This document shows positions 2,577 through 36,101 of a stretch of DNA of 41,293 nucleotides, one piece after another. A program made the position numbers and the translations under genes. The stretch is from the UHGV virus genome UHGV-0213939; one strand, given 5' to 3'. Below the pieces are notes generated by a model. It saw only the letters and a program-made list of their open reading frames with translations. It searched no databases and had not been told where the DNA came from. Origin of the DNA: a virus. Positions within the stretch are counted from its first letter, which is position 1. Every line of letters begins with the position of its first letter.

Positions 2577-5500
2577 TCAACTGATACTGATACCGGCTGT
2601 AGATTTCTTCATCACAACAACAAGAAGGTCGCTGATACTGGTCGTTGGCGTCCAGTTATTAGCACCATATGAAGAAACATTGAAAGTCAGGGTGACATGG
2701 CCGTGTCCGGCAGGCATATCAATGACTGATGAAAATACCCTGCTGACATCCGTCGCGGGTTGCTGAAAGATTTCCTGTCCGTTCTTCAGCACCTGCAGCT
2801 TACAGGTTGAATACCAGTATGACTGTTGGTTGTTGCTGTTGAAGTTTTCATGCTTACCACCGCGAAACAGAACGGGGGGGATTACTATCTGACGGTCAAA
2901 AGCCTGGTCATCGTACACCGTGACCGTTATTGTACCGCTGGCATAACTGCTATTTCTCGGAAAGGCTTTTCCCACCGTTTTAACAATATCGCCTTCAATC
3001 TGGTTGGCTGACAGTTTTCCCAGAATCCGGCAGTTCTGATTAATCGTGACATTGTTGAGCGTCCCGGAGTTCGCGTTCACGTTACCGCTGATATCCGCAT
3101 TTTTCGCCGTCAGCCGCCCGTCCGGTGTCAGGGAAAATGCCGGAGGATTACCGCCGCTGGTAATGGTGGGAGCCGTCAGATATTTCAGGAACACTTCATT
3201 CATAAATATCTGATCGCCCTGACCAACAAACATCGGCTTTGTATTGCCATTCGCAGGATTAATCATCGCAATCCTGTCCGCCGCCAGCAGCACCTGACTC
3301 TGCATACCGTCAGGGGTATTCTCAATACCGGCACCAATACCCGCGATATAAAGGCGTCCGTCCTGCATCTGCTGCAGCTTCACAGCCCACATGCTGTTCA
3401 GGTTATTATTTGTATCAACCTGAACCTTCTGTATCTGCTGGATCGCTGCACTCTGGTCTTCCAGTTTCTTATTGACAGTCTGCGTGATTTCATTGCTGAC
3501 ACCCGTAATGGACGTCCTGATTTCAGCCAGGTCAGGCGCAAGCTGACCGTTATCAATCTGCGTCCACAACTCCTGAGCCAGATGGGTTTTCCCTATCTCT
3601 CCTTTGAAAAAATTCAGATAGCCGGAGGCATCATCACTCGGCTGGCCAACAGCCTCCACAAATGCCGATTTGCCAACGGTGTTCACACTGCGGATGTAAA
3701 AATAATAATCATGGCCCGGTTTGATATTGATACTGGCGGCTATCCAGTACAGCGCCGTGCCAAGATAGCGTGCTGTGGTTTCAACCTGCCTGATATCCGC
3801 AATCCGCTTTTCCGAGAACCAGAACTCAAACTGTACCGTCGGATCATAAACCGCAAGATGCGGCGTGGCGGTTATCTGAAAATACCCCGGTGTCAGCTCA
3901 ATCTGCGACGGCGCTGCCGGTGCGGCAATCCGGAACGATACCGATGCCGGATCGCCCTGCTGCCCCCACGCATTTACCGCCCGGACTGTCAGCCTGTAGT
4001 TCCCCAGCGCCAGTTGCCTGAAGCGGTATGTGGTTTCCGTCGTCCGGGCCATGCTGACCAGCCGCTCACTGCCGTCGTCCGCTGCCACGGTAAGGCGAAG
4101 CAGGAAGCTCACGCCCTTCACCACCTTCGGCGTGTCCCATCGCGCCAGCACCTGATATTCCCCGCTGTCTGCGGTGACTTCGGCGGTCAGGTGCTGCACC
4201 GCTGGCGGCGTGACACCATTCACCGTGCCGCTCTGGTCGCCGTCAAAGTGCGCCCCGTTATCCACGATGGCTTCTTTTTCCGGTACATGCTGCACGGCGG
4301 TGATGGCATACGTACCGTCATCGTTCTCCCGGATACTCACACAGCGGAACAGGCGCTGGCGCAGCGTCGGCAGCTTCAGCCCCCATACGCTGTATTCAGC
4401 AACACCGTCAGGAACACGGCTCACTTTTACCTTCACGCCGTCGGTGACGGACTGAACCTCCACGCTGACCGGATTGCCACTTCCGTCAACCAGGCTTATC
4501 AGCGTGGTACCGGAGGATGGCAGCGTGATTTCACGGTCGAGCGTCAGCGTCCGGGTCTGGCTGTTCACCGCCAGCACACGACCACCGGTGCTGATACCGG
4601 CATAGTCATCATCACAGATTTCAATAACATCGCCCGGTACATGGCGAAGCCCTTCTGCGCCGACGCTGAAATCCACGGTCTGCGTTTCCAGCAGTTCCGT
4701 TTTAATCAGCCACAGCCCGGCGCGGTGTGCCTGCCCCCGGCTGGTACAGCCAAAGGCATCCATCTTCGTGACGTTACGACCGTAACGGGCAATGGCCTGC
4801 GTGTCCTCCACAAGCTCTGTTGCCGTTTCCCAGCCGTTATCCGGGTCAATCCAGTTCACCTCAACGGCATTATGGCGGTCCTTCAGGGCGCTGAAGCTGT
4901 AGCGGAACGGCGCGCCATCATCCGGCATCACCACATTACTGCGGTTATAGGTCCACACCTTATCCGACGGTCGGTCCTGCACGAACGTCAGCGTCTGCCC
5001 GTTCCATACCGGCATACAGCGCATCGCCGAGCAGAAATCACTGAGCACATCCCACGCCTTGCGCTGTGTGGTCAGGTATGCATTACAGGTGATGCGCGGC
5101 TCCGTGCCGCCAAAGCCGTCCGGCACTGACTGGTCGCAATTCTGGCCGATGACATACAGCGCCCATTTATCCACATCTGCCGCACCAAGACGTTTCCCCA
5201 TGCCGTAGCGCGGGTGGGTCAGCATATCCCACAGACACCAGGCCATGTTGTTGCTGTATGCCGGTTTTAACGTTCCGTCCCAGATACCGCTGTATTGCCG
5301 CGTCTGCGGGTTATAGTTCGACGGCACCTGCAGAATGCGCCCGCGCAGATGATAATTACGGCTCACCTGCTGGCTGCCGAACTGCTCCGAGTCCACCTGC
5401 ACGCCGACCAGTGCCGTGTTCGGGTAGCACTGTTTCACATCGATAATTTCGGTGTATGACGACCAGAGCGTTTTGTTCTGCAGCTGGTCTGTGGTGCTGT

Positions 5501-6059
5501 CCGGCGTCATCCTGCGCATCCGGATATTAAACGGGCGCGGCGGCAGGTTATCCACCACCACCGAGGCCAGGTACTGCGAGGTGGTTTTGCCCTTAATGGT
5601 GATGTCTTTTTCCGTCACCCAGCCACCGTTACGCTGTATCTGAACCAGCAGGCGGACTTCCGACGGATTCCGGTCACCCTTTGAGGTGGTTTCCACCAGT
5701 GCCTGCACACCGAAGGTAAAGCGCAGACGGTCGATGTTTGCCGACGTGATGGTCCGGGTGATCGGCGTGTCATATTTCACTTCCGTACCCAGCACCGTCT
5801 CGGAGCCGGAGGATTCAAATCCCTCCGGCGGAGTCTGCTCCTGCTCACCTGCCCGGAACACCACCGTGACACCGGAGATGTTGGTATTCCCCTCACTGTC
5901 CAGCACCGGCGTACTGTTCAGCAGCACGCTTTTTAATCCATCCACCGGACCTTCAACCGGCCCTTCGCTGATGGCGTCTATCACGCTCAGCATCTGGGAT
6001 GATTTCAGGTTGTCCTTCGCTTCGCGCGGGGTATGCCCCTTACTGCTGCCTTTACCCAT
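2577..6059 (-). CDS. J: Tail tip / host specificity protein J (central tail fibre)
   Basis: 1160-aa ORF in the lambda J position after I; length and fibronectin-like repeats typical of lambda J (about 1130 aa). C-terminal end differs from lambda J. Confidence 0.9.
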
Positions 6060-8465: not shown

Positions 8466-11041
8466 CGTCCACCTCCGGAGAACAGACCACCATCGCGCAT
8501 CTGTGCCTGGATTTCATCACGGGCACCCTTGCGGGCCATGTCATACACCGCCTTCATCATCTGTGGACCTGGCAGACCCTTCGTACCGTCGTTCTGAATC
8601 ACCACGTTGTTGTTCTGCTCAAACCTGATACCCTCTGAACGCCGCATTTGCGCCGGACTTCCGGTGCCACCGACATAACCGCCGGTGGCATAGCCGCGCA
8701 TCAGCCGGTAGAGATTTCCCACGCCAATCCGGCTGGTTGCCTCCTTCGTGAAGACAAATTCACCACGGTGAACAATCCCCGCTGGCTCATATTTGCCGCC
8801 GGTTCCCGTAAATCCTCCGGTCGCAAAATGGAATTTCGCCGCAGCAGCCTGGATGGCTGTACCGCCTGACGCTGATGCGCCACCACCGGCAGCACCGCCA
8901 ATGGCGCTGCCGATACTCCCGACAATTCCCACCATTGCCTGCTTAAGCAGAATTTCTGTCATCATGGACAGCACGGAACGGGTGAAGCTGCGCCAGTTCT
9001 GTTCACTGCCGGTCAGCATCGCCGCCATATTTTGCGCAATACCATCAAAGGTCTGCGTGGCAGCACTTTTAACCTGCGACATACTGTCCGTGGCGCTCTC
9101 TTCCCACTCACTCCAGCCTGACTTGAGGCCTGCCATCCAGCTCCCGCGAAGCTGGTCTTCAGCTGCCCAGGTCTTTTTCTGCTCTGACATGACGTTATTC
9201 AGCGCCAGCGGATTATCGCCATACTGCTCCTTCAGACGCTGTTCCGTGGCTTCCCGCGCTGCCTGCCGGTCAGTCAGCCCCCGGCTTTTCGCATCAATGG
9301 CGGCCCGTTTTGCCCGTTGCTGCTGTGCAAATTTATCCGCCTGCTGCGCCAGCGCGTTCAGGTGCTCCTGATACGTAACCTTGTCGCCAAGTGCAGCCAG
9401 CTGGCGTTTGTACTCCAGCGTCTCATCTTTATGCGCCAGCAGGGATTTCTCCTGTGCAGACAGCTGGCGACGTTGTGCGGCCTCCTCCAGTACCGCGAAC
9501 TGACTTTCTGCCTTCCACAAATCCCGGCGCTGCTGGCTGATTTTCTCATTCGCTCCGGCATGCTTCTCCAGCGTCCGGAGTTCTGCCTGAAGCGTCAGAA
9601 GGGCAGCATGAGCACTGTCTTCCTGACGATCGCCCGCAGACACCTTCACGCCGGACTGTTTCGGCTTTTTCAGCGTCGCTTCATAATCCTTTTTCGCCGC
9701 CGCCATCAGCGTGTTGTAATCTGCCTGCAGGATTTTCCCGTCCTTCAGTGCCTTGTTCAGTTCTTCCTGACGGGCGGTATATTTCTCCAGCGGCGTCTGC
9801 AGGCGTTCGTAAGCCTTCTGCGCCTCTTCGGTATATTTCAGCCGTGATGCCTCAGAGTCGGCCCAGTCCTTTGCTGCCATCTCTCTGGCCTTTTCCAGAA
9901 CGGCCTGCAACGTGGCGGCTGAAAGCCCAAGTTGCGCATTCGCTCTGTCCTCCCATGCTCCACGGAGATTGGCAAGAAATGCTGAGGTTTTACCGCGCCG
10001 GTGGCTCCGGCTCTGATACCACTGCCATTTTTTGTCCGCCTCATCAAAAGCCTTTTCTGCTTTCTCCAGCATTTCCTGGGCTGTGTCCGGGCGACCAATA
10101 TCCAGCACCGAATCCCACATGGATTTGAATGCCCGCGCAGTCCTGTCTGCCCAGGTCTCCAGCGTGCCCATGTTCTCTTTCAGGCGGCGGGTCTGGTCAT
10201 CAAACCCTTTCGTTGCGGCCTCGTTCGCTGCCTGCAATGCCCCGGCCTCATCGCCGGAACGCTGCAACTGAGCAACATACGCAATTTGCTCCGCCGTCAC
10301 GTTATGGAACTGGCGCGCCATCGCCGTCAGCCCCGACGTCGGGTCAGTGGTCAGCTTCCCGAAGGCTTCAGCGACCTTGTCCACCTCCACGCCGGATGCA
10401 GAGGAGAAACGCGCCACACTCTGGCTGATGGACGCAATCTGAGCCTCACCGCTTACCCCCGCCTTAACCAGTGCACTGAGTGACTCGCTGGTCTGGTTAA
10501 ACGTCAGCCCTGCCGCCTGCCCGGCTCTGGACAGGACCAGCATACGATCTGCCGTCAGACCCGACTGATTACCGGAAAGGACCAGCGTTTTGTTGAAATC
10601 GGACAGGGTTGAGTTACCCTGATACCAGGCATACGCCAGCGCACCGGTCGCCACCGCCAGCGAGGTGGCCCCGACCATCGGCAGGGTGATCGCACCGGCA
10701 AGCCCCCGGAACATGGGGATCATCCCGCCGAAGGAGTCCTTAACCTGACCACCCTGTTGCAGCAGGATCAGCCACGGACTTTGCCCGCCTGCAAGCTGCG
10801 TGGCCACGTCGGTGAACTGCGCAGGCAGCATACGCATGGCAGCTTTATACTGCCCGACGGAAATCCCCGCTTTCTGTGCAGCCAGCGCCTGCCGGTTCAT
10901 CGACTGTTCAACGACTGCCGCTGTTTTTTTCGCATCAGTTTCCGTACCGGAAAAATGACGCCTGACTCTGGCCATCTGCTCGTCAAATCTGGCCGCATCC
11001 AGACTTAAATCAACGACCAGATCGCCTACCGGTTCAGCCAT
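8462..11041 (-). CDS. H: Tail tape measure protein H
   Basis: 859 aa (lambda H is about 853 aa); long helical Ala/Gln/Glu-rich protein following G/T. Confidence 0.9.
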   Translation of the reverse strand: MAEPVGDLVVDLSLDAARFDEQMARVRRHFSGTETDAKKTAAVVEQSMNRQALAAQKAGISVGQYKAAMRMLPAQFTDVATQLAGGQSPWLILLQQGGQVKDSFGGMIPMFRGLAGAITLPMVGATSLAVATGALAYAWYQGNSTLSDFNKTLVLSGNQSGLTADRMLVLSRAGQAAGLTFNQTSESLSALVKAGVSGEAQIASISQSVARFSSASGVEVDKVAEAFGKLTTDPTSGLTAMARQFHNVTAEQIAYVAQLQRSGDEAGALQAANEAATKGFDDQTRRLKENMGTLETWADRTARAFKSMWDSVLDIGRPDTAQEMLEKAEKAFDEADKKWQWYQSRSHRRGKTSAFLANLRGAWEDRANAQLGLSAATLQAVLEKAREMAAKDWADSEASRLKYTEEAQKAYERLQTPLEKYTARQEELNKALKDGKILQADYNTLMAAAKKDYEATLKKPKQSGVKVSAGDRQEDSAHAALLTLQAELRTLEKHAGANEKISQQRRDLWKAESQFAVLEEAAQRRQLSAQEKSLLAHKDETLEYKRQLAALGDKVTYQEHLNALAQQADKFAQQQRAKRAAIDAKSRGLTDRQAAREATEQRLKEQYGDNPLALNNVMSEQKKTWAAEDQLRGSWMAGLKSGWSEWEESATDSMSQVKSAATQTFDGIAQNMAAMLTGSEQNWRSFTRSVLSMMTEILLKQAMVGIVGSIGSAIGGAAGGGASASGGTAIQAAAAKFHFATGGFTGTGGKYEPAGIVHRGEFVFTKEATSRIGVGNLYRLMRGYATGGYVGGTGSPAQMRRSEGIRFEQNNNVVIQNDGTKGLPGPQMMKAVYDMARKGARDEIQAQMRDGGLFSGGGR

Positions 11042-31814: not shown

Positions 31815-33167
<1,353 letters not shown>

Positions 33168-33217
33168 TCCCCACCTCAATCTCAGTAACCAAAAAACAAA
33201 CTATTTTCCGTTTAAAA

Positions 33218-33285
33218 ACAATGGAGTTTGTTTTTTGTACCTCCATTTACAGTATTTCTTGTTTACAACATACAATCTTTCTTGT
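33218..33285. promoter_or_regulatory. OL: OL operator region with pL: three 434-type operators (ACAATGGAGTTTGT, ACAGTATTTCTTGT, ACAATCTTTCTTGT)
   Basis: ACAA-N6-TTGT sites at 33218-33231, 33249-33262 and 33272-33285, upstream of nutL and N. Confidence 0.75.
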
Positions 33286-33329
33286 AATTTTAAGCCATCA
33301 GCAGGACGCACTGACCACCATGAAGGTGA

Positions 33330-33360
33330 TGCTCTTAAAAATTAAGCCCTGAAGAAGGGC
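33330..33360 (+). promoter_or_regulatory. nutL: nutL (boxA TGCTCTTAA, box[16 protein letters not shown])
   Basis: boxB hairpin GCCCTGAAGAAGGGC at 33346-33360 matches lambda nutL boxB; boxA-like element 8 nt upstream. Confidence 0.75.
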
Positions 33361-33470
33361 AGCATTCAAAGCAGAAGGCTTTGAGTAGCGCGAAATGCAG
33401 CTGCAAGACAGCAACCGTGGGGATAAGCATCACGGCGCGTTACTCAAAGCTAACTGACAGGAGAATCCAG

Positions 33471-33797
33471 ATGGATGCACAAACACGCCGCCGCGAACGT
33501 CGCGCAGAGAAACAGGCTCAATGGAGAGCAGCAAATCCACTGTTGGTTGGGGTAAGCGCAAAACCAGTTAACCGCCCTATTCTCTCGCTGAATCGCAAAC
33601 CGAAATCACGAGTAGAAAGCGCACTGAATCCAATAGACCTTACAGTGCTGGCTGAATACCACGAACAGATTGAAAGCAACCTGCAACGTATTGAGCGAAA
33701 GAATCAGCGCACATGGTACAGCAAGCCACGCAGTGAAATGGGTGTGACTTGTGTCGGTCACCAGAAAATGAAATTAGGCAGCAAACCACTTATTTGA
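33471..33797 (+). CDS. N: Antiterminator N
   Basis: MDAQTRRRERRAEKQAQWRAANPLLVGVSAKPVNRPILSLNRKPKSRVESALNPIDLTVLAEYH.. closely matches lambda N including the arginine-rich motif. The ORF track extends it upstream to 33381. Confidence 0.9.
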   Translation: MDAQTRRRERRAEKQAQWRAANPLLVGVSAKPVNRPILSLNRKPKSRVESALNPIDLTVLAEYHEQIESNLQRIERKNQRTWYSKPRSEMGVTCVGHQKMKLGSKPLI

Positions 33798-33875
33798 GGT
33801 GATATATGGAAGAAGAATTTGAAGAGTTCGAAGAGCATCCGCAGGATGTGATGGAACAATACCAGGACTATCCGT

Positions 33876-34076
33876 ATGACTACGACTATTGATAAAAATC
33901 AATGGTGTGGACAATTCAAACGATGCAATGGATGCAAGCTGCAATCGGAATGCATGGTTAAGCCTGAAGAAATGTTTCCTGTAATGGAAGATGGGAAATA
34001 TGTCGATAAATGGGCAATACGAACGACGGCAATGATTGCCAGAGAACTTGACAAACAGAAAAACAAGGCTGCCTGA
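33876..34076 (+). CDS. ral: Restriction alleviation protein Ral
   Basis: 66 aa; MTTTIDKNQWCGQFKRCNGCKLQSECMVKPEEMFPVMEDGKYVDKWAIRTTAMIARELDKQKNKAA matches lambda Ral from memory. Confidence 0.85.
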   Translation: MTTTIDKNQWCGQFKRCNGCKLQSECMVKPEEMFPVMEDGKYVDKWAIRTTAMIARELDKQKNKAA

Positions 34077-34212
34077 TGGTGGCCTTTATTTTTGGCATAA
34101 ACAACAGAATAAACACTGCACTGTGTATTCATTCCAACGAGTGAATACACGGAGCAATGTCGCTCGTAACTAAACAGGAGCCGACTTGTTCTGATTATTG
34201 GAAATCTTCTTT

Positions 34213-34239
34213 GCCCTCCAATGTGAGGGCGTTTTTTTT
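34213..34239 (+). terminator. Intrinsic terminator in the early-left operon (GCCCTC-loop-GAGGGC followed by T8)
   Basis: Perfect 6-bp GC-rich stem with a 6-nt loop, followed by GTTTTTTTT. Confidence 0.6.
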
Positions 34240-34252
34240 GACGGAGTAAACG

Positions 34253-34501
34253 ATGATAAAAACTGATTACCCTGCAGAGCTTAAACAAAAAGTAATAACA
34301 GCAATTAAATGCTCTTTTATCTCATGTCGTACAGATGAAGAACGATATGTCGTTGAGTGTGCAATTGTCGAGTTTCTCACAGCGATGGAATTTACCGCTG
34401 CAGAATCAATAGATGTATTAAAGCAATCAGACGGAAATGATATTGAAACGGATGATGTTATTGACCGACTAATAAAATCATTCGAAGAAGAAATAGAGTA
34501 G
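34253..34501 (+). CDS. Hypothetical acidic protein (82 aa)
   Basis: ORF immediately after the terminator; strongly acidic C-terminal half (..DGNDIETDDVIDRLIKSFEEEIE); no family recognised. Confidence 0.5.
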   Translation: MIKTDYPAELKQKVITAIKCSFISCRTDEERYVVECAIVEFLTAMEFTAAESIDVLKQSDGNDIETDDVIDRLIKSFEEEIE

Positions 34502-34584
34502 CCGCCTGAGCGCGGCTTTACCGCATACCAATAATGCTTCACGAGAGGCATTTTCGTTATGCAATCAAATATAAGGAGTTACCC

Positions 34585-34719
34585 ATGATGCACTTTCAGC
34601 TCGCGGGTAGCGGCGTCATGTCCGCTTTCTACCCGCACGAATCTGAATTATCACGCCGAGTTAAACAATTAATCAGAGCAGCAAAGAAACAACTGGAGGC
34701 GTTATGCGCAATGAAATAG
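34585..34719 (+). CDS. cIII: CIII-like protein (FtsH inhibitor)
   Basis: Internal start MMHFQLAGSGVMSAFYPHESELSRRVKQLIRA with an AAGGAG RBS; pattern resembles lambda CIII (..AIAGWPVAGCPSESLLERITRKL..). Confidence 0.55.
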   Translation: MMHFQLAGSGVMSAFYPHESELSRRVKQLIRAAKKQLEALCAMK

Positions 34720-34856
34720 CCATTAATCACCAGATGCTTCGTGCTGCACAGAACAAAGCAGTAATAGCCCGATTTATTGGTGATTCAAAAATGTGGCTTG
34801 AAGCAAATAAAGCGATGAAATCAGCTATCAACCTTCCATGGTATCGCAGGAAATGA
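34704..34856 (+). CDS. kil: Kil-like protein (50 aa)
   Basis: Manual translation MRNEIAINHQMLRAAQNKAVIARFIGDSKMWLEANKAMKSAINLPWYRRK; the ..IARFIGDSKMW..A..A.K.. segment resembles lambda Kil. Below the ORF-track size cutoff. Confidence 0.5.
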   Translation: MRNEIAINHQMLRAAQNKAVIARFIGDSKMWLEANKAMKSAINLPWYRRK

Positions 34857-35011
34857 GTTTTACAGATAACTGGTCAGACGAAGAATTCATTCGTCAGATG
34901 AAAGAATTAATCGGTAACGAAGGAGATATGCATGCCACTTGCAACCACAGTGAAGGAGAGCAAGTTACAGAGACGCATGTACACGCAGAAAGCTCTCTGG
35001 TATCGCCATAA
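34853..35011 (+). CDS. Possible small protein (52 aa) between kil and erf
   Basis: ATGA overlap with the kil stop; manual translation MSFTDNWSDEEFIRQMKELIGNEGDMHATCNHSEGEQVTETHVHAESSLVSP. Confidence 0.3.
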   Translation: MSFTDNWSDEEFIRQMKELIGNEGDMHATCNHSEGEQVTETHVHAESSLVSP

Positions 35012-35112
35012 TGGCGACCGCGAAGGAATGCGGGTATGTCTTAATTTGTCCCGAGTCGAAGTATTAAATCAGCGTTATTTCCTTGGGTCATGTCCATTCT
35101 GAGAACAATCAT

Positions 35113-35718
35113 ATGAGCAAAGAATTTTACGCAAGACTGGCAGCTATTCAGGAGAATCTGAACGCGCCAAAGAATCAGTACAACTCATTCGGTAAATATA
35201 AATACAGAAGCTGCGAAGATATTCTTGAAGGCGTTAAGCCGTTACTGAATGGCCTGTTTTTATCAATCAGCGATGAAGTTGTGTTGATTGGTGATCGGTA
35301 TTATGTGAAAGCCACGGCAACTATTACCGATGGCGAAAACAGTCATACGGCAACCGCTCTTGCACGAGAGGAAGAAAGCAAGAAAGGAATGGATTCTGCA
35401 CAAGTTACGGGAGCTACAAGCTCTTATGCACGCAAGTATTGCCTCAATGGTTTGTTCGGCATTGATGATGCGAAAGATGCAGATACCGACGAGCATAAAC
35501 ATCAGCAGAACGCAGCAGCAAAGCAATCAAAACCATCACCTACACCTGAACAGGTTCTAAAAGCATTCACTGACGCAGCAATGCAGAAAAACACCGTAGA
35601 AGAGCTTAAACAGGCGTTCGCCAAAGCGTGGAAGATGCTCGAAGGTACACCGGAGCAGCACAAAGCGCAGGACGTTTACAACATCAGACGAGACGAATTA
35701 GAAGGGGCAACTGCTTAA
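35113..35718 (+). CDS. erf: ERF-family single-strand annealing recombinase
   Basis: MSKEFYARLAAIQENLNAPKNQYNSFGKYKYRSCEDILEGVKPLLNGL.. resembles the P22 Erf N-terminal domain from memory. The ORF track extends the start to 35083. Confidence 0.7.
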   Translation: MSKEFYARLAAIQENLNAPKNQYNSFGKYKYRSCEDILEGVKPLLNGLFLSISDEVVLIGDRYYVKATATITDGENSHTATALAREEESKKGMDSAQVTGATSSYARKYCLNGLFGIDDAKDADTDEHKHQQNAAAKQSKPSPTPEQVLKAFTDAAMQKNTVEELKQAFAKAWKMLEGTPEQHKAQDVYNIRRDELEGATA

Positions 35719-36101
35719 TGGCACACTCGATTACTGTAAGACTAAACAAGCCAGCAAGAGAGTTTCAGGCCGGGGAAAATATCGGATTCAATATCCGTGC
35801 TGGCGTTCAGTATTACGATCGCCAGACAAAAAAGAAAGAATGGACAAACTACAGCGCCGTTGTATTTGCCAAGCCGGGAGCGCAAGCGGATTACTACCGT
35901 AGTATTCTTGTTGAAGGTGGCATTGTAGAAATTACCGGAGAAAACATCAGGGTTGATGTTTATCAGGGGCAAAATGGTCAATCAATCACTCTTGAATTAC
36001 TGAATGCAAAGATTGGATTTGCAACATCAGGAAACTGCCAACAGCAACAAAGTAGCAATCATCAAAATCATCCTGAATACGATGATTCAATTCCCTTCTA
36101 A
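35718..36101 (+). CDS. SSB-like single-stranded DNA-binding protein (OB fold with acidic C-terminal tail)
   Basis: Start MAHSITVRLNK.. overlaps the erf stop (TAATG). C-terminus ..PEYDDSIPF mimics the E. coli SSB tail (..DDDIPF). Confidence 0.6.
   Translation: MAHSITVRLNKPAREFQAGENIGFNIRAGVQYYDRQTKKKEWTNYSAVVFAKPGAQADYYRSILVEGGIVEITGENIRVDVYQGQNGQSITLELLNAKIGFATSGNCQQQQSSNHQNHPEYDDSIPF

What the first reader, a model, noticed from the sequence alone, without database searches (positions are those of the whole stretch)
33806..34501. Small acidic ORFs flanking ral in the early-left operon (candidate anti-defence proteins)
Seen in sequence: next to a clear Ral homologue there is a 28-aa highly acidic ORF (33806-33892, MEEEFEEFEEHPQDVMEQYQDYPYDYDY, overlapping the ral start) and, after an intrinsic terminator, an 82-aa protein with a very acidic C-terminal half (34253-34501). 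Established knowledge: the early-left region of lambdoid phages is enriched in small proteins that counter host defences, Ral being one. Inference: these acidic proteins could be DNA-mimic-type or other anti-defence factors. This is weakly supported, especially for the 28-aa peptide.
Basis: inference. Interest (0 to 1): 0.35.

Follow-up and report, generated by a model that had tools for sequence, protein, structure and literature searches.

The report
Conserved acidic mini-gene beside ral
The 28-codon acidic ORF overlapping ral is lambda's long-annotated but unstudied orf28, and comparative evidence shows it is a real, strongly conserved micro-protein gene that travels with restriction-alleviation genes (Ral, and in some phages Lar), whereas the 82-aa acidic protein is an unrelated swappable accessory gene that gave no reported phenotype in a published anti-defence screen.

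Summary
Both ORFs are in the sequence exactly as described. They are different things.

**The 28-aa ORF (33806-33892)** is lambda orf28 (lambdap47).
- It is a real gene. 168 of 175 loci found through Ral carry it, down to 46% Ral identity.
- Synonymous sites are saturated (pS 0.6-1.0) while pN is 0.1-0.25. Indels are in frame, and the ribosome-binding site and the roughly 17-nt overlap with the ral start are kept.
- It stays intact where ral is broken.
- In 11 loci it sits just after a Lar-family restriction-alleviation gene, with no ral present.
- My best reading (inferred) is a companion peptide of restriction alleviation that acts on a host target. Its translation probably also helps ral initiation.

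**The 82-aa ORF (34253-34501)** matches phrog_14587.
- It is a confidently predicted four-helix protein of a very small family.
- It is one of many alternative cassettes after the tL2a terminator.
- It is identical to UDP0194 in the 200-gene accessory library of Silas et al., where it is never named as a hit. Only ardA, ral and ocr were noted against EcoKI.
- It has no structural match to any solved DNA mimic.

The "DNA mimic" idea is untested for orf28 and unsupported for the 82-aa protein. A broader anti-defence role remains plausible for both.

The parts
33796..33802 (+). Shine-Dalgarno GAGGTGA of orf28. The N stop codon (33795-33797) lies inside it.
   Evidence: Read directly from the sequence. 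The conserved block begins about 10-27 nt upstream of the orf28 ATG whatever lies further upstream (N, sieB or other genes). The same GAGGTGA is kept in Kluyvera with a GTG start and inside the 3' end of Lar genes.
33806..33892 (+). orf28, a 28-aa acidic and aromatic micro-protein gene. It is the same gene as lambda orf28/lambdap47 (phrog_16060, unknown function).
   Evidence: Matches phrog_16060 at E 7e-19 and is annotated in NC_001416. Codon-position bias and synonymous excess support coding. Against diverged homologues pS is 0.6-1.0 and pN 0.1-0.25. It is present in 168 of 175 loci found through Ral. The DNA is in 883 of 5426 complete E. coli genomes, and in the rows shown only the Ral gene is annotated under the match.
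33876..34076 (+). ral, the restriction alleviation gene. Its ATG lies 17 nt inside orf28.
   Evidence: Pfam PF11058 at E 2e-47. It is 97% identical to lambda Ral. The overlap with orf28 is 17 nt in most loci and 8-23 nt in a few.
33885..33906 (+). Predicted 9-bp hairpin (ACUAUUGAU-AAAA-AUCAAUGGU) in ral codons 4-11. It contains the orf28 stop codon and is a candidate translational-coupling element.
   Evidence: Found in the minimum-energy and centroid folds of the window, P22, Kluyvera and L170, with one compensatory U-A to C-G change in L170. It is absent in L134, L215, L237 and L238. This is inference only.
34065..34096 (+). Terminator-like hairpin plus T-tract straddling the ral stop codon.
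   Evidence: Consensus scan and fold. A similar sequence follows orf28-like directly in Lar-type loci that lack ral.
34150..34239 (+). Counterpart of the lambda PreS (LPR1) Hfq-dependent sRNA, ending at terminator tL2a (stem 34212-34231 plus T-tract). The 5' boundary is approximate.
   Evidence: The 34077-34239 stretch is about 98% identical to the lambda ral-ea10 spacer. LPR1/PreS is mapped between ea10 and ral, ending at tL2a, in bioRxiv 10.1101/2024.10.31.621285. The fold z-score is -6.1 and the terminator was found by the scan.
34253..34501 (+). 82-aa acidic four-helix accessory protein (phrog_14587). It is identical to HK446 gp36 / AFH20664.1, which is UDP0194 in the Silas et al. library.
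   Evidence: phrog_14587 at E 2e-48. 100% identical in HK446, ECP1 and Kapi1. Only 17 representatives at 50% identity in 1.84 billion proteins. AF2 pLDDT 90.7 with four helices. No PDB fold match. Listed in the library. Present in 58 of 5426 E. coli genomes.

Best explanation
The finding joins two unrelated genes of a lambdoid pL (early-left) operon.

**(1) orf28.**
- Shown: orf28 is a genuine protein-coding gene. It encodes a 23-28-aa acidic and aromatic peptide with the core E-[ED]-H-P-x-D-x-M-x-x-Y-Q-D-Y-P-Y-[DE]-[YF]-D-Y, and it has its own strong ribosome-binding site. It forms a fixed two-gene cassette with the restriction-alleviation gene ral.
- Shown: a near-identical peptide gene sits immediately downstream of a Lar-family restriction-alleviation gene in phages that have no ral.
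- Inferred: the peptide works in the same process as Ral and Lar, which is blunting type I restriction during early infection. It most likely binds a host target through its invariant aromatic and acidic face, rather than binding Ral or Lar themselves. The reason is that the same peptide variant occurs with Ral types only 73% identical to each other, and a near-identical one occurs with Lar.
- Inferred: in the lambda/P22 clade, ribosomes finishing orf28 also melt a hairpin that sits just after the ral start codon. This would couple ral translation to orf28.

**(2) The 82-aa protein.**
- Shown: it is a separate, horizontally mobile accessory gene. It occupies the hypervariable slot between terminator tL2a and cIII, where lambda has ea10. 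It is expressed only by N-antiterminated read-through. It belongs to a tiny family also found at early-gene positions in virulent Salmonella and Klebsiella siphophages and one T7-like phage.
- Inferred: it is a small acidic helical binder of some host or defence protein. The target is unknown and is probably not the EcoKI type I enzyme.
For: **orf28 is coding.**
- 18 of 23 variants are at codon position 3, and there are 12 synonymous to 11 non-synonymous changes where 27 to 159 are possible. The other two frames give 1:21 and 5:17.
- Against homologues found through Ral similarity, pS is 0.6-1.0 and pN 0.1-0.25 over the 21 codons that do not overlap ral.
- Indels are multiples of three. ATG-to-GTG start changes keep the frame and the SD spacing.

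**Linkage to ral.**
- 117 phage records have Ral and 117 have orf28 DNA.
- 168 of 175 Ral-ascertained viral contigs carry the core.
- In 88 unique pairs, orf28 is at least as conserved as Ral in almost every pair listed, for example 71-79% against 46-50% in the most diverged.
- The overlap with the ral ATG is kept.

**Independence from the Ral sequence.**
- orf28 is intact in at least 7 loci where ral has a frameshifting deletion, on different genetic backgrounds.
- The identical lambda-type peptide is paired with P22-type Ral.

**Lar link.**
- In L332-L340, L347 and L349 the order is N, then Lar, then orf28-like with a 14-nt overlap and no ral. The Lar gene scores 35-36 bits against PF14354, above the 28.6 cut-off.
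- Ral and Lar profiles show no detectable homology: hhalign probability 2.3%.
- The C-terminal residues stay conserved there although nothing overlaps them.

**Coupling hairpin:**

**The 82-aa protein.**
- Family size and model quality.
- Variable slot: Ea10 in about 100 loci against this gene in about 9. Homology with lambda ends exactly at the tL2a T-tract.
- Present without orf28 or ral in HK446.
- Early-region positions in unrelated phages.
Against: **orf28.**
- I found no direct evidence that it is translated. The lambda ribosome-profiling paper could not be read.
- No function is reported in what I could search. It is dispensable for plaque formation in a lambda CRISPRi map (PMC10695390).
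- Ral expressed alone from a synthetic ORF is a hit against EcoKI (PMC12373910 Supplementary Dataset 1). The peptide is therefore not needed for Ral activity at high expression.
- Its retention in ral-defective phages, and its position on opposite sides of Ral and Lar, fit equally well with a peptide that merely lives at this locus.
- The Lar association is limited to one Lar subfamily in metagenomic contigs. More distant RalR-like Lar genes lack it.
- The hairpin is absent from the most diverged Ral lineages.
- A few Ral loci lack a full orf28 (L295, L250, L284).

**The 82-aa protein.**
- The identical protein was in the 200-gene screen and is never named as a hit. Any anti-defence role is therefore outside the hosts and phages tested, or absent.
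Confidence: 0.45

Rival explanations
1. orf28 is only a leader or upstream ORF. On this view what matters is that ribosomes traverse it and terminate inside the ral initiation region (translational coupling), and the peptide itself has no function.
For: The 17-nt stop/start overlap is conserved. A hairpin just after the ral ATG contains the orf28 stop codon and shows one compensatory change. orf28 has a stronger SD than ral.
Against: Selection acts at the amino-acid level. pN/pS is roughly 0.15-0.3 with saturated synonymous sites, and seven residues are invariant. The gene is kept intact where ral is frameshifted. It is also kept downstream of Lar with only a terminator-like hairpin after it, where its C-terminus is still conserved without any overlap.
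Confidence: 0.12
2. orf28 is an autonomous early peptide with a host target unrelated to restriction-modification, such as a replication, recombination, nuclease or protease factor. It sits next to ral and lar only because this is where accessory genes are exchanged just downstream of N.
For: It persists in ral-dead phages on several backgrounds. It lies upstream of Ral but downstream of Lar. It recombines freely relative to Ral type. Ral alone is enough against EcoKI. Its acidic stretch ending in an aromatic residue resembles the acidic C-terminal tails of SSB and T7 gp2.5; this comparison is from my own knowledge and was not tested.
Against: In the 120 viral-contig pattern hits and the 6 metagenome hits, it was never seen away from a Ral or Lar gene or a remnant of one. 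Two restriction-alleviation families with no detectable homology share it. The overlapping, coupled arrangement is typical of genes that work together.
Confidence: 0.3
3. orf28 is a chance ORF. Its conservation would then come from DNA or RNA constraints, such as the ral initiation region or a recombination linker.
For: It is very short. In the complete E. coli genome rows shown, only the Ral gene is annotated under the match. Between lambda and P22 the DNA is 95% identical although Ral is 73% identical, which could reflect a mosaic junction.
Against: Diverged lineages change most synonymous sites and keep the peptide. Indels are in frame. Variants concentrate at third codon positions in this frame only.
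Confidence: 0.03
4. The 82-aa protein is an anti-restriction DNA mimic, as its PHROG name and acidic C-terminal half suggest.
For: phrog_14587 is labelled 'anti-restriction protein'. Net charge is -11. It sits at early-gene positions in several phage groups, including the early left end of a T7-like phage (position 2201-2413 of the genome). From memory, T7 carries ocr near its own left end. It lies next to ral in a slot rich in accessory genes.
Against: I could not trace any experimental source for the label. GenBank submitters call it hypothetical, and literature searches found nothing. Foldseek against the PDB gives nothing at E<1, and the PDB profile search gives nothing. The identical protein (UDP0194) was screened, and only ardA, ral and ocr were noted as hits for lambda on MG1655.
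Confidence: 0.1
5. The 82-aa protein is a host-takeover or regulatory factor not aimed at a defence system. For example, it could modulate a host replication, transcription or proteolysis factor, like its neighbours CIII and Kil.
For: It sits among CIII, Kil and recombination genes. It replaces Ea10, whose role is also unknown. It gave no reported anti-defence or toxicity phenotype in the accessory-gene screen. In siphophages it precedes ParB-like and methyltransferase genes.
Against: There is no positive evidence for any target. Patchy, near-identical distribution across unrelated phages is more typical of conflict genes.
Confidence: 0.3

Closest known systems
Lambda orf28 (lambdap47, NP_040623; phrog_16060)
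   Same: The protein is identical. The DNA is 99% identical over the 103 bases compared (33798-33900). The 17-nt overlap with ral is the same.
   Different: Here the gene follows N directly, whereas lambda has sieB between them. Lambda orf28 has no described function. It is listed only as a non-essential hypothetical protein (PMC10695390).
Ral (PF11058) and Lar (PF14354) restriction-alleviation proteins
   Same: orf28 is genetically fixed to Ral and, in one lineage, to Lar. All are small early pL-operon products. Ral converts the EcoKI methyltransferase to de novo activity (PMC3874165).
   Different: orf28 has no sequence relation to either. It is acidic with no cysteines, while Ral and Lar are cysteine-rich small proteins. 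No role for a partner peptide appears in the reviews I read.
T4 Stp, a 26-aa peptide that acts on a type I R-M enzyme (from my own knowledge; Stp was a control in the Silas library)
   Same: It is precedent that a phage peptide of under 30 residues can target a type I restriction complex.
   Different: Stp is basic, while orf28 has net charge -12. No sequence similarity was tested or is expected, and orf28 matches no Pfam family.
DNA-mimic anti-restriction proteins Ocr and ArdA
   Same: Strongly acidic, early-expressed and phage- or plasmid-borne.
   Different: They are 116-170 aa folded mimics of B-form DNA. The 82-aa model matches no solved structure at E<1, and orf28 is too short to mimic a type I target site. 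In the published screen ocr and ardA were hits and UDP0194 was not noted.
Lambda Ea10 and other cassettes in the tL2a-cIII slot (P22 orf78/orf87/gene 17, BTP1_034/033)
   Same: The 82-aa gene occupies the same position and has the same dependence on read-through of tL2a.
   Different: The sequences are unrelated. The 82-aa family is far rarer: 58 of 5426 E. coli genomes and about 9 of roughly 330 related loci.

Membership tests
Lambda Orf28 family (phrog_16060) | 23-28-aa ORF with the core EHPxDxMxxYQDYPY and an acidic N-terminus | tested here: met
   E 7e-19 over the full length. The peptide is identical to lambda's.
Lambda Orf28 family (phrog_16060) | Own SD, with a stop codon lying inside the first codons of ral | tested here: met
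   GAGGTGA at 33796-33802 and a 17-nt overlap. Both are conserved in related loci.
Protein-coding gene under purifying selection (as opposed to a chance ORF) | Excess of synonymous over non-synonymous change in this frame only, with in-frame indels | tested here: met
   for substitutions. for indels.
Protein-coding gene under purifying selection (as opposed to a chance ORF) | Direct evidence of translation (ribosome footprints or detected peptide) | not testable with these tools
   The lambda ribosome-profiling paper is not held. No other source was found.
Pure translational-coupling leader ORF | Stop codon of the leader at or inside the start region of the downstream gene | tested here: met
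   17-nt overlap, and a hairpin containing the stop codon.
Pure translational-coupling leader ORF | Peptide sequence free to vary, and ORF dispensable when the downstream gene is lost | tested here: not met
   Seven residues are invariant and pN is well below pS. The ORF is kept where ral is frameshifted or absent.
DNA-mimic anti-restriction proteins (Ocr, ArdA) | Fold resembling a solved DNA mimic | tested here: not met
   For the 82-aa model (pLDDT 90.7), Foldseek against 350,542 PDB chains gives a best E of 1.1. The sequence profile against the PDB gives nothing significant. orf28 is too short to model and has no PDB sequence hit.
DNA-mimic anti-restriction proteins (Ocr, ArdA) | Large net negative charge | tested here: met
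   Net charge -12 for orf28 and -11 for the 82-aa protein. This feature is necessary but not specific.
DNA-mimic anti-restriction proteins (Ocr, ArdA) | Relieves restriction by a type I enzyme in vivo | not testable with these tools
   Published screen notes say that for MG1655 plus lambda 'ardA, ral, ocr are hits'. UDP0194, which is the 82-aa protein, is not mentioned. orf28 was not in that library.
phrog_14587 ('anti-restriction protein') | Sequence match to the family profile | tested here: met
   E 2e-48 over residues 1-82 of 82.
phrog_14587 ('anti-restriction protein') | Experimental basis for the functional name | tested here: not met
   None found. GenBank records say hypothetical, and only re-annotated RefSeq records carry the name. 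Literature searches were empty.
Known anti-phage defence proteins (PADLOC) | Match to any defence-system profile | tested here: not met
   No family at E up to 1 for either protein.

The most novel reading that the evidence does not exclude
Orf28 is an unrecognised second component of phage restriction alleviation. It would be a roughly 3.5-kDa acidic and aromatic peptide that binds the type I R-M complex, or a host factor controlling it. At native expression levels it would be needed together with Ral, or interchangeably with Lar, to protect unmodified phage DNA. That would explain why two restriction-alleviation families with no detectable homology keep the same peptide gene translationally coupled to them.
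Probability: 0.3. Interest if true: 0.7.

Novelty: new variant of a known kind. Interest (0 to 1): 0.45.

Why it matters
How Ral, and its functional analogue Lar, switch type IA restriction enzymes from cutting to methylating has been unresolved since the 1980s. No Ral structure or complex exists in the PDB.

A conserved micro-protein physically coupled to both families gives a concrete and cheap handle on this question. It suggests a new partner to include in genetic, pull-down and structure-prediction experiments.

It is also a reminder that lambda itself still carries an unstudied gene. That gene's DNA is in about 16% of complete E. coli genomes, and in the rows shown only the Ral gene is annotated under it.

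For the 82-aa protein the practical value is negative but useful. The 'anti-restriction protein' name now spreading through RefSeq phage annotations has no traceable experimental basis, and it is not borne out by the one screen that included the protein.

Tried and rejected
- **Co-folding orf28 with Ral.** I built a paired alignment of orf28-linker-Ral (A3) to see whether the peptide folds against Ral.
- **Lambda ribosome-profiling paper.** Not held.
- **Scan of one genome per species with a Ral profile.** It returned mostly lambda-identical Ral hits on contigs of unrelated taxa, many short or about 48 kb long, which I take to be lambda DNA contamination of those assemblies. Only one informative locus came out, from Kluyvera.
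- **Word-indexed homologue search for the 82-aa protein.** It found only near-identical copies. The exhaustive search was needed.
- **Other family searches.** Pfam, NCBIfam and PADLOC gave nothing significant for either ORF. Rfam gave nothing real for the ral-to-orf82 spacer.
- **Named isolates with the Lar-orf28 arrangement.** No blastn match in 50,697 phage records or in E. coli genomes, so the hosts of those contigs remain unknown.
- **Programmed frameshift fusing Orf28 to Ral.** Considered and rejected. Ral is in the +1 frame, but no slippery sequence is evident, the overlap length varies between 8 and 23 nt, and Lar-type loci have no downstream partner.
- **Hidden homology between Ral and Lar.** Considered because it would make the two associations non-independent. 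Rejected on an hhalign probability of 2.3%.
Full report
**Setting.** Window 32134-36100 (+ strand) is the immunity and early-left (pL) region of a lambdoid or P22-like prophage. In order it holds:
- a LexA-type repressor;
- a lipoprotein-like moron;
- N (33472-33797, Pfam N36);
- the 28-codon ORF;
- ral;
- a structured spacer;
- the 82-codon ORF;
- cIII, kil, small recombination-associated ORFs, erf and an SSB-like gene.

The finding interval (33798-34510) is 100% identical to prophages in E. coli strains A3 and A26.

**Observation.** The existence of a 28-codon ORF proves nothing on its own, since 67 ORFs of at least 20 aa overlap this 3.5 kb. Everything therefore rests on comparison with related sequences.

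**The 28-aa ORF is lambda orf28.** NC_001416 annotates orf28 (lambdap47, NP_040623) at 34271-34357, overlapping ral by 17 nt. The window peptide is identical and matches phrog_16060 ("unknown function") at E 7e-19. In lambda it is listed as a non-essential hypothetical protein (PMC10695390) and was deleted along with ral in one strain series (PMC2327257). I found no functional statement about it in any search. Two reviews of type I restriction describe Ral alone.

**orf28 is a real gene.**
- Among loci found through Ral, 23 distinct single-base variants lie in the part of orf28 that does not overlap ral. Eighteen are at codon position 3 (P 1.3e-5). Twelve are synonymous where 13% would be expected (P 1.1e-5). 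The other two frames give 1 and 5 synonymous changes.
- I fetched more distant Ral homologues using diverged Ral proteins as queries, so the sample is not selected on orf28. Nearly all have an upstream acidic ORF with the same core. By a strict motif, 168 of 175 Ral-ascertained loci carry it.
- In 88 unique pairs the peptide is at least as conserved as Ral in almost every pair listed. For example it is 71-79% identical where Ral is 46-50%.
- Over the 21 non-overlapping codons, pS against the window is 0.6-1.0 (saturated) while pN is 0.1-0.25.
- Length changes are whole codons. In Kluyvera and other loci the start is GTG at the same distance from a conserved GAGGTGA.
- Seven residues are invariant in the 28 pairs aligned: F8, H11, P12, D14, M16, Y19 and Q20.
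- Conserved DNA begins 10-27 nt upstream of the ATG whatever lies further upstream. The unit of inheritance is therefore the SD plus orf28 plus ral.
- Exceptions exist. L295 has another gene in this place, and L250 and L284 have a replaced N-terminus.

**orf28 does not depend on the Ral protein.**
- At least seven viral contigs, and phage ECP1, carry a ral allele with a frameshifting internal deletion between short repeats. It yields MTTTIDKNQWCGQYERRQ*. These alleles sit on different N types and downstream genes, and orf28 is intact in all of them.
- The identical lambda-type peptide is found with lambda-type Ral and with P22-type Ral, which are 73% identical. There is thus no sign of co-adaptation between the two proteins.

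**The Lar link.**
- One pattern hit (L210) had no ral. Its upstream gene proved to be a Lar-family protein with the motifs CPFCG...C.GC...WNSR.
- Fetching relatives of that Lar gave nine contigs, and a metagenome pattern scan added two. In all of them the order is N, then Lar, then orf28-like, for example VGEDEFEEHPDDDMSQYQDYPFDYDY. The Lar gene is 77 aa and scores 35-36 bits against PF14354, above the 28.6 cut-off.
- The peptide's SD lies inside the end of lar, and the two genes overlap by 14 nt.
- The sequence after the peptide's stop codon resembles the last codons of ral plus its terminator, as if ral had been removed precisely.
- In this context nothing overlaps the C-terminal codons, yet they remain conserved. 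pS against the window is at least 0.87 and pN 0.18-0.21.
- Ral and Lar profiles show no detectable homology: hhalign probability 2.3%.
- More distant, RalR-like Lar genes lack the peptide.
- In the 120 viral-contig pattern hits and the 6 metagenome hits, I never saw the peptide away from a Ral or Lar gene or a remnant of one.

**Mechanism for orf28.**
- Shown: it is a conserved coding gene, translationally overlapped with restriction-alleviation genes of two families.
- Inferred: the peptide serves the same process and acts on a host target. I infer a host target, rather than Ral or Lar themselves, because the peptide stays nearly the same across partners.
- A secondary role in the lambda/P22 clade is likely. 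A 9-bp hairpin begins 9 nt after the ral ATG and contains the orf28 stop codon. It recurs in P22, Kluyvera and L170 with one compensatory pair, so terminating ribosomes would open the ral start. It is missing in the most diverged lineages, so it cannot be the whole story.
- Against a cofactor role: Ral alone, expressed from a synthetic ORF, was a clear hit against EcoKI.
- I put about 0.4 on "works in restriction alleviation", 0.3 on "autonomous peptide with another host target", 0.12 on "leader only" and 0.03 on "not a gene".

**The 82-aa protein.**
- It matches phrog_14587 (E 2e-48), whose label is "anti-restriction protein". Submitters' GenBank records call it hypothetical, and only re-annotated RefSeq records carry the name. 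I could not trace an experiment behind it.
- It is 100% identical in HK446, ECP1 and Kapi1. It is about 40% identical in virulent Salmonella, Escherichia and Klebsiella siphophages.
- An exhaustive search of 1.84 billion representative proteins found only 17 relatives.
- The alignment shows conserved A17, C25 and E40, an IVEF motif and an acidic D-G-x-D-x-x-T-D-x-x-I-D stretch.
- AlphaFold2 gives a confident four-helix model with pLDDT 90.7. It has no PDB match at E<1. In the viral structure library it matches only its own family.
- It is not fixed to ral. Homology with lambda stops exactly at the tL2a T-tract. In related loci the slot holds Ea10 in about 100 cases and this gene in about 9. 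HK446 has it without orf28 or ral. It is in 58 of 5426 complete E. coli genomes, against 883 for orf28.
- In siphophages it is the first gene of a same-strand block after a divergent intergenic region. In one Autographiviridae phage it lies 2.2 kb from the left end. These are early-gene positions, typical of takeover or counter-defence genes.
- The decisive outside evidence is that the identical protein (AFH20664.1) is UDP0194 in the 200 accessory genes synthesised by Silas et al. (bioRxiv 10.1101/2023.04.06.535777, Supplementary File 3). It is not named among genes with toxicity or counter-defence phenotypes in the preprint or the paper. The screen notes for MG1655 plus lambda list only ardA, ral and ocr as hits in all three replicates (PMC12373910 Supplementary Dataset 1). 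I saw notes, not per-gene fitness values.
- The protein is therefore a real accessory gene with an unknown target, and it is probably not an EcoKI inhibitor.

**Context between the two ORFs.** The spacer 34077-34239 is about 98% identical to lambda's. It corresponds to the Hfq-dependent sRNA PreS/LPR1, which ends at tL2a and up-regulates host dnaN. It is strongly structured, with z = -6.1. Expression of the 82-aa gene therefore requires N-mediated read-through of two terminators.

**Verdict.**
- The ORFs themselves are already annotated. What appears new, within what I could search, is that orf28 is under clear purifying selection, is at least as conserved as Ral in almost every pair listed, and is shared by Ral-type and Lar-type cassettes.
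- That makes it a modestly surprising and directly testable lead on an old question. The 82-aa protein is ordinary, and its database name should be treated with caution.

Noticed in passing
window 34077-34239: The ral-to-orf82 spacer is about 98% identical to lambda's ral-ea10 spacer. It therefore carries the counterpart of the Hfq-dependent sRNA PreS/LPR1, ending at terminator tL2a. It is very strongly structured (z = -6.1) and has no Rfam family. Homology with lambda ends exactly at the T-tract.
   Followed up: partly
window 34065-34096: A second intrinsic-terminator-like hairpin with a T-tract straddles the ral stop codon. A similar sequence directly follows the orf28-like gene in Lar-type loci that lack ral.
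   Followed up: partly
window 33795-33805: The N stop codon lies inside the orf28 Shine-Dalgarno sequence. There is no sieB gene between N and orf28, unlike lambda and P22, where an opposite-strand sieB sits there.
   Followed up: no
L003 (phage ECP1) 1600-1765; also L125, L127, L128, L176, L195, L231: A recurrent ral knock-out allele. A deletion between short repeats TGG(A/G)CAAT shifts the frame and gives MTTTIDKNQWCGQYERRQ*. It is found on several different N types and downstream gene sets. L186 carries a ral nonsense mutation instead.
   Followed up: partly
L195 about 9398-9890 and L231 about 5340-5829 (minus-strand orientation): A 149-aa membrane-protein gene begins with AAGGTGATATATGGAAGAAC, the same SD and first codons as orf28, as if the initiation region were reused as a recombination joint. 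The protein resembles UDP0047 of the Silas library.
   Followed up: no
L332-L340, just after the orf28-like gene (e.g. L332 2803-2889): In Lar-type loci a 24-28-aa hydrophobic peptide ORF follows the acidic peptide gene, for example MISTGNYIFGWLVIGVLMGLGFIAGG. It is conserved across these contigs.
   Followed up: no
window 34932-35102 and 34838-35011: Two further small pL-operon ORFs are present: 56 aa (phrog_1723) and 57 aa (phrog_2123), both labelled 'recombinase'. The 56-aa one is a clear homologue of UDP0168 in the same published accessory-gene library.
   Followed up: no
window 32691-33167: A moron encoding a protein with a lipoprotein-like signal sequence sits between the cI-type repressor and pL, where lambda has rexA and rexB.
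   Followed up: no
L092-L108 (genome-contig hits): Lambda-identical ral loci appear on short or about 48-kb contigs in assemblies of unrelated taxa such as Shewanella, Pseudomonas, Nocardioides and Bradyrhizobium. This looks like lambda DNA contamination of those assemblies.
   Followed up: no
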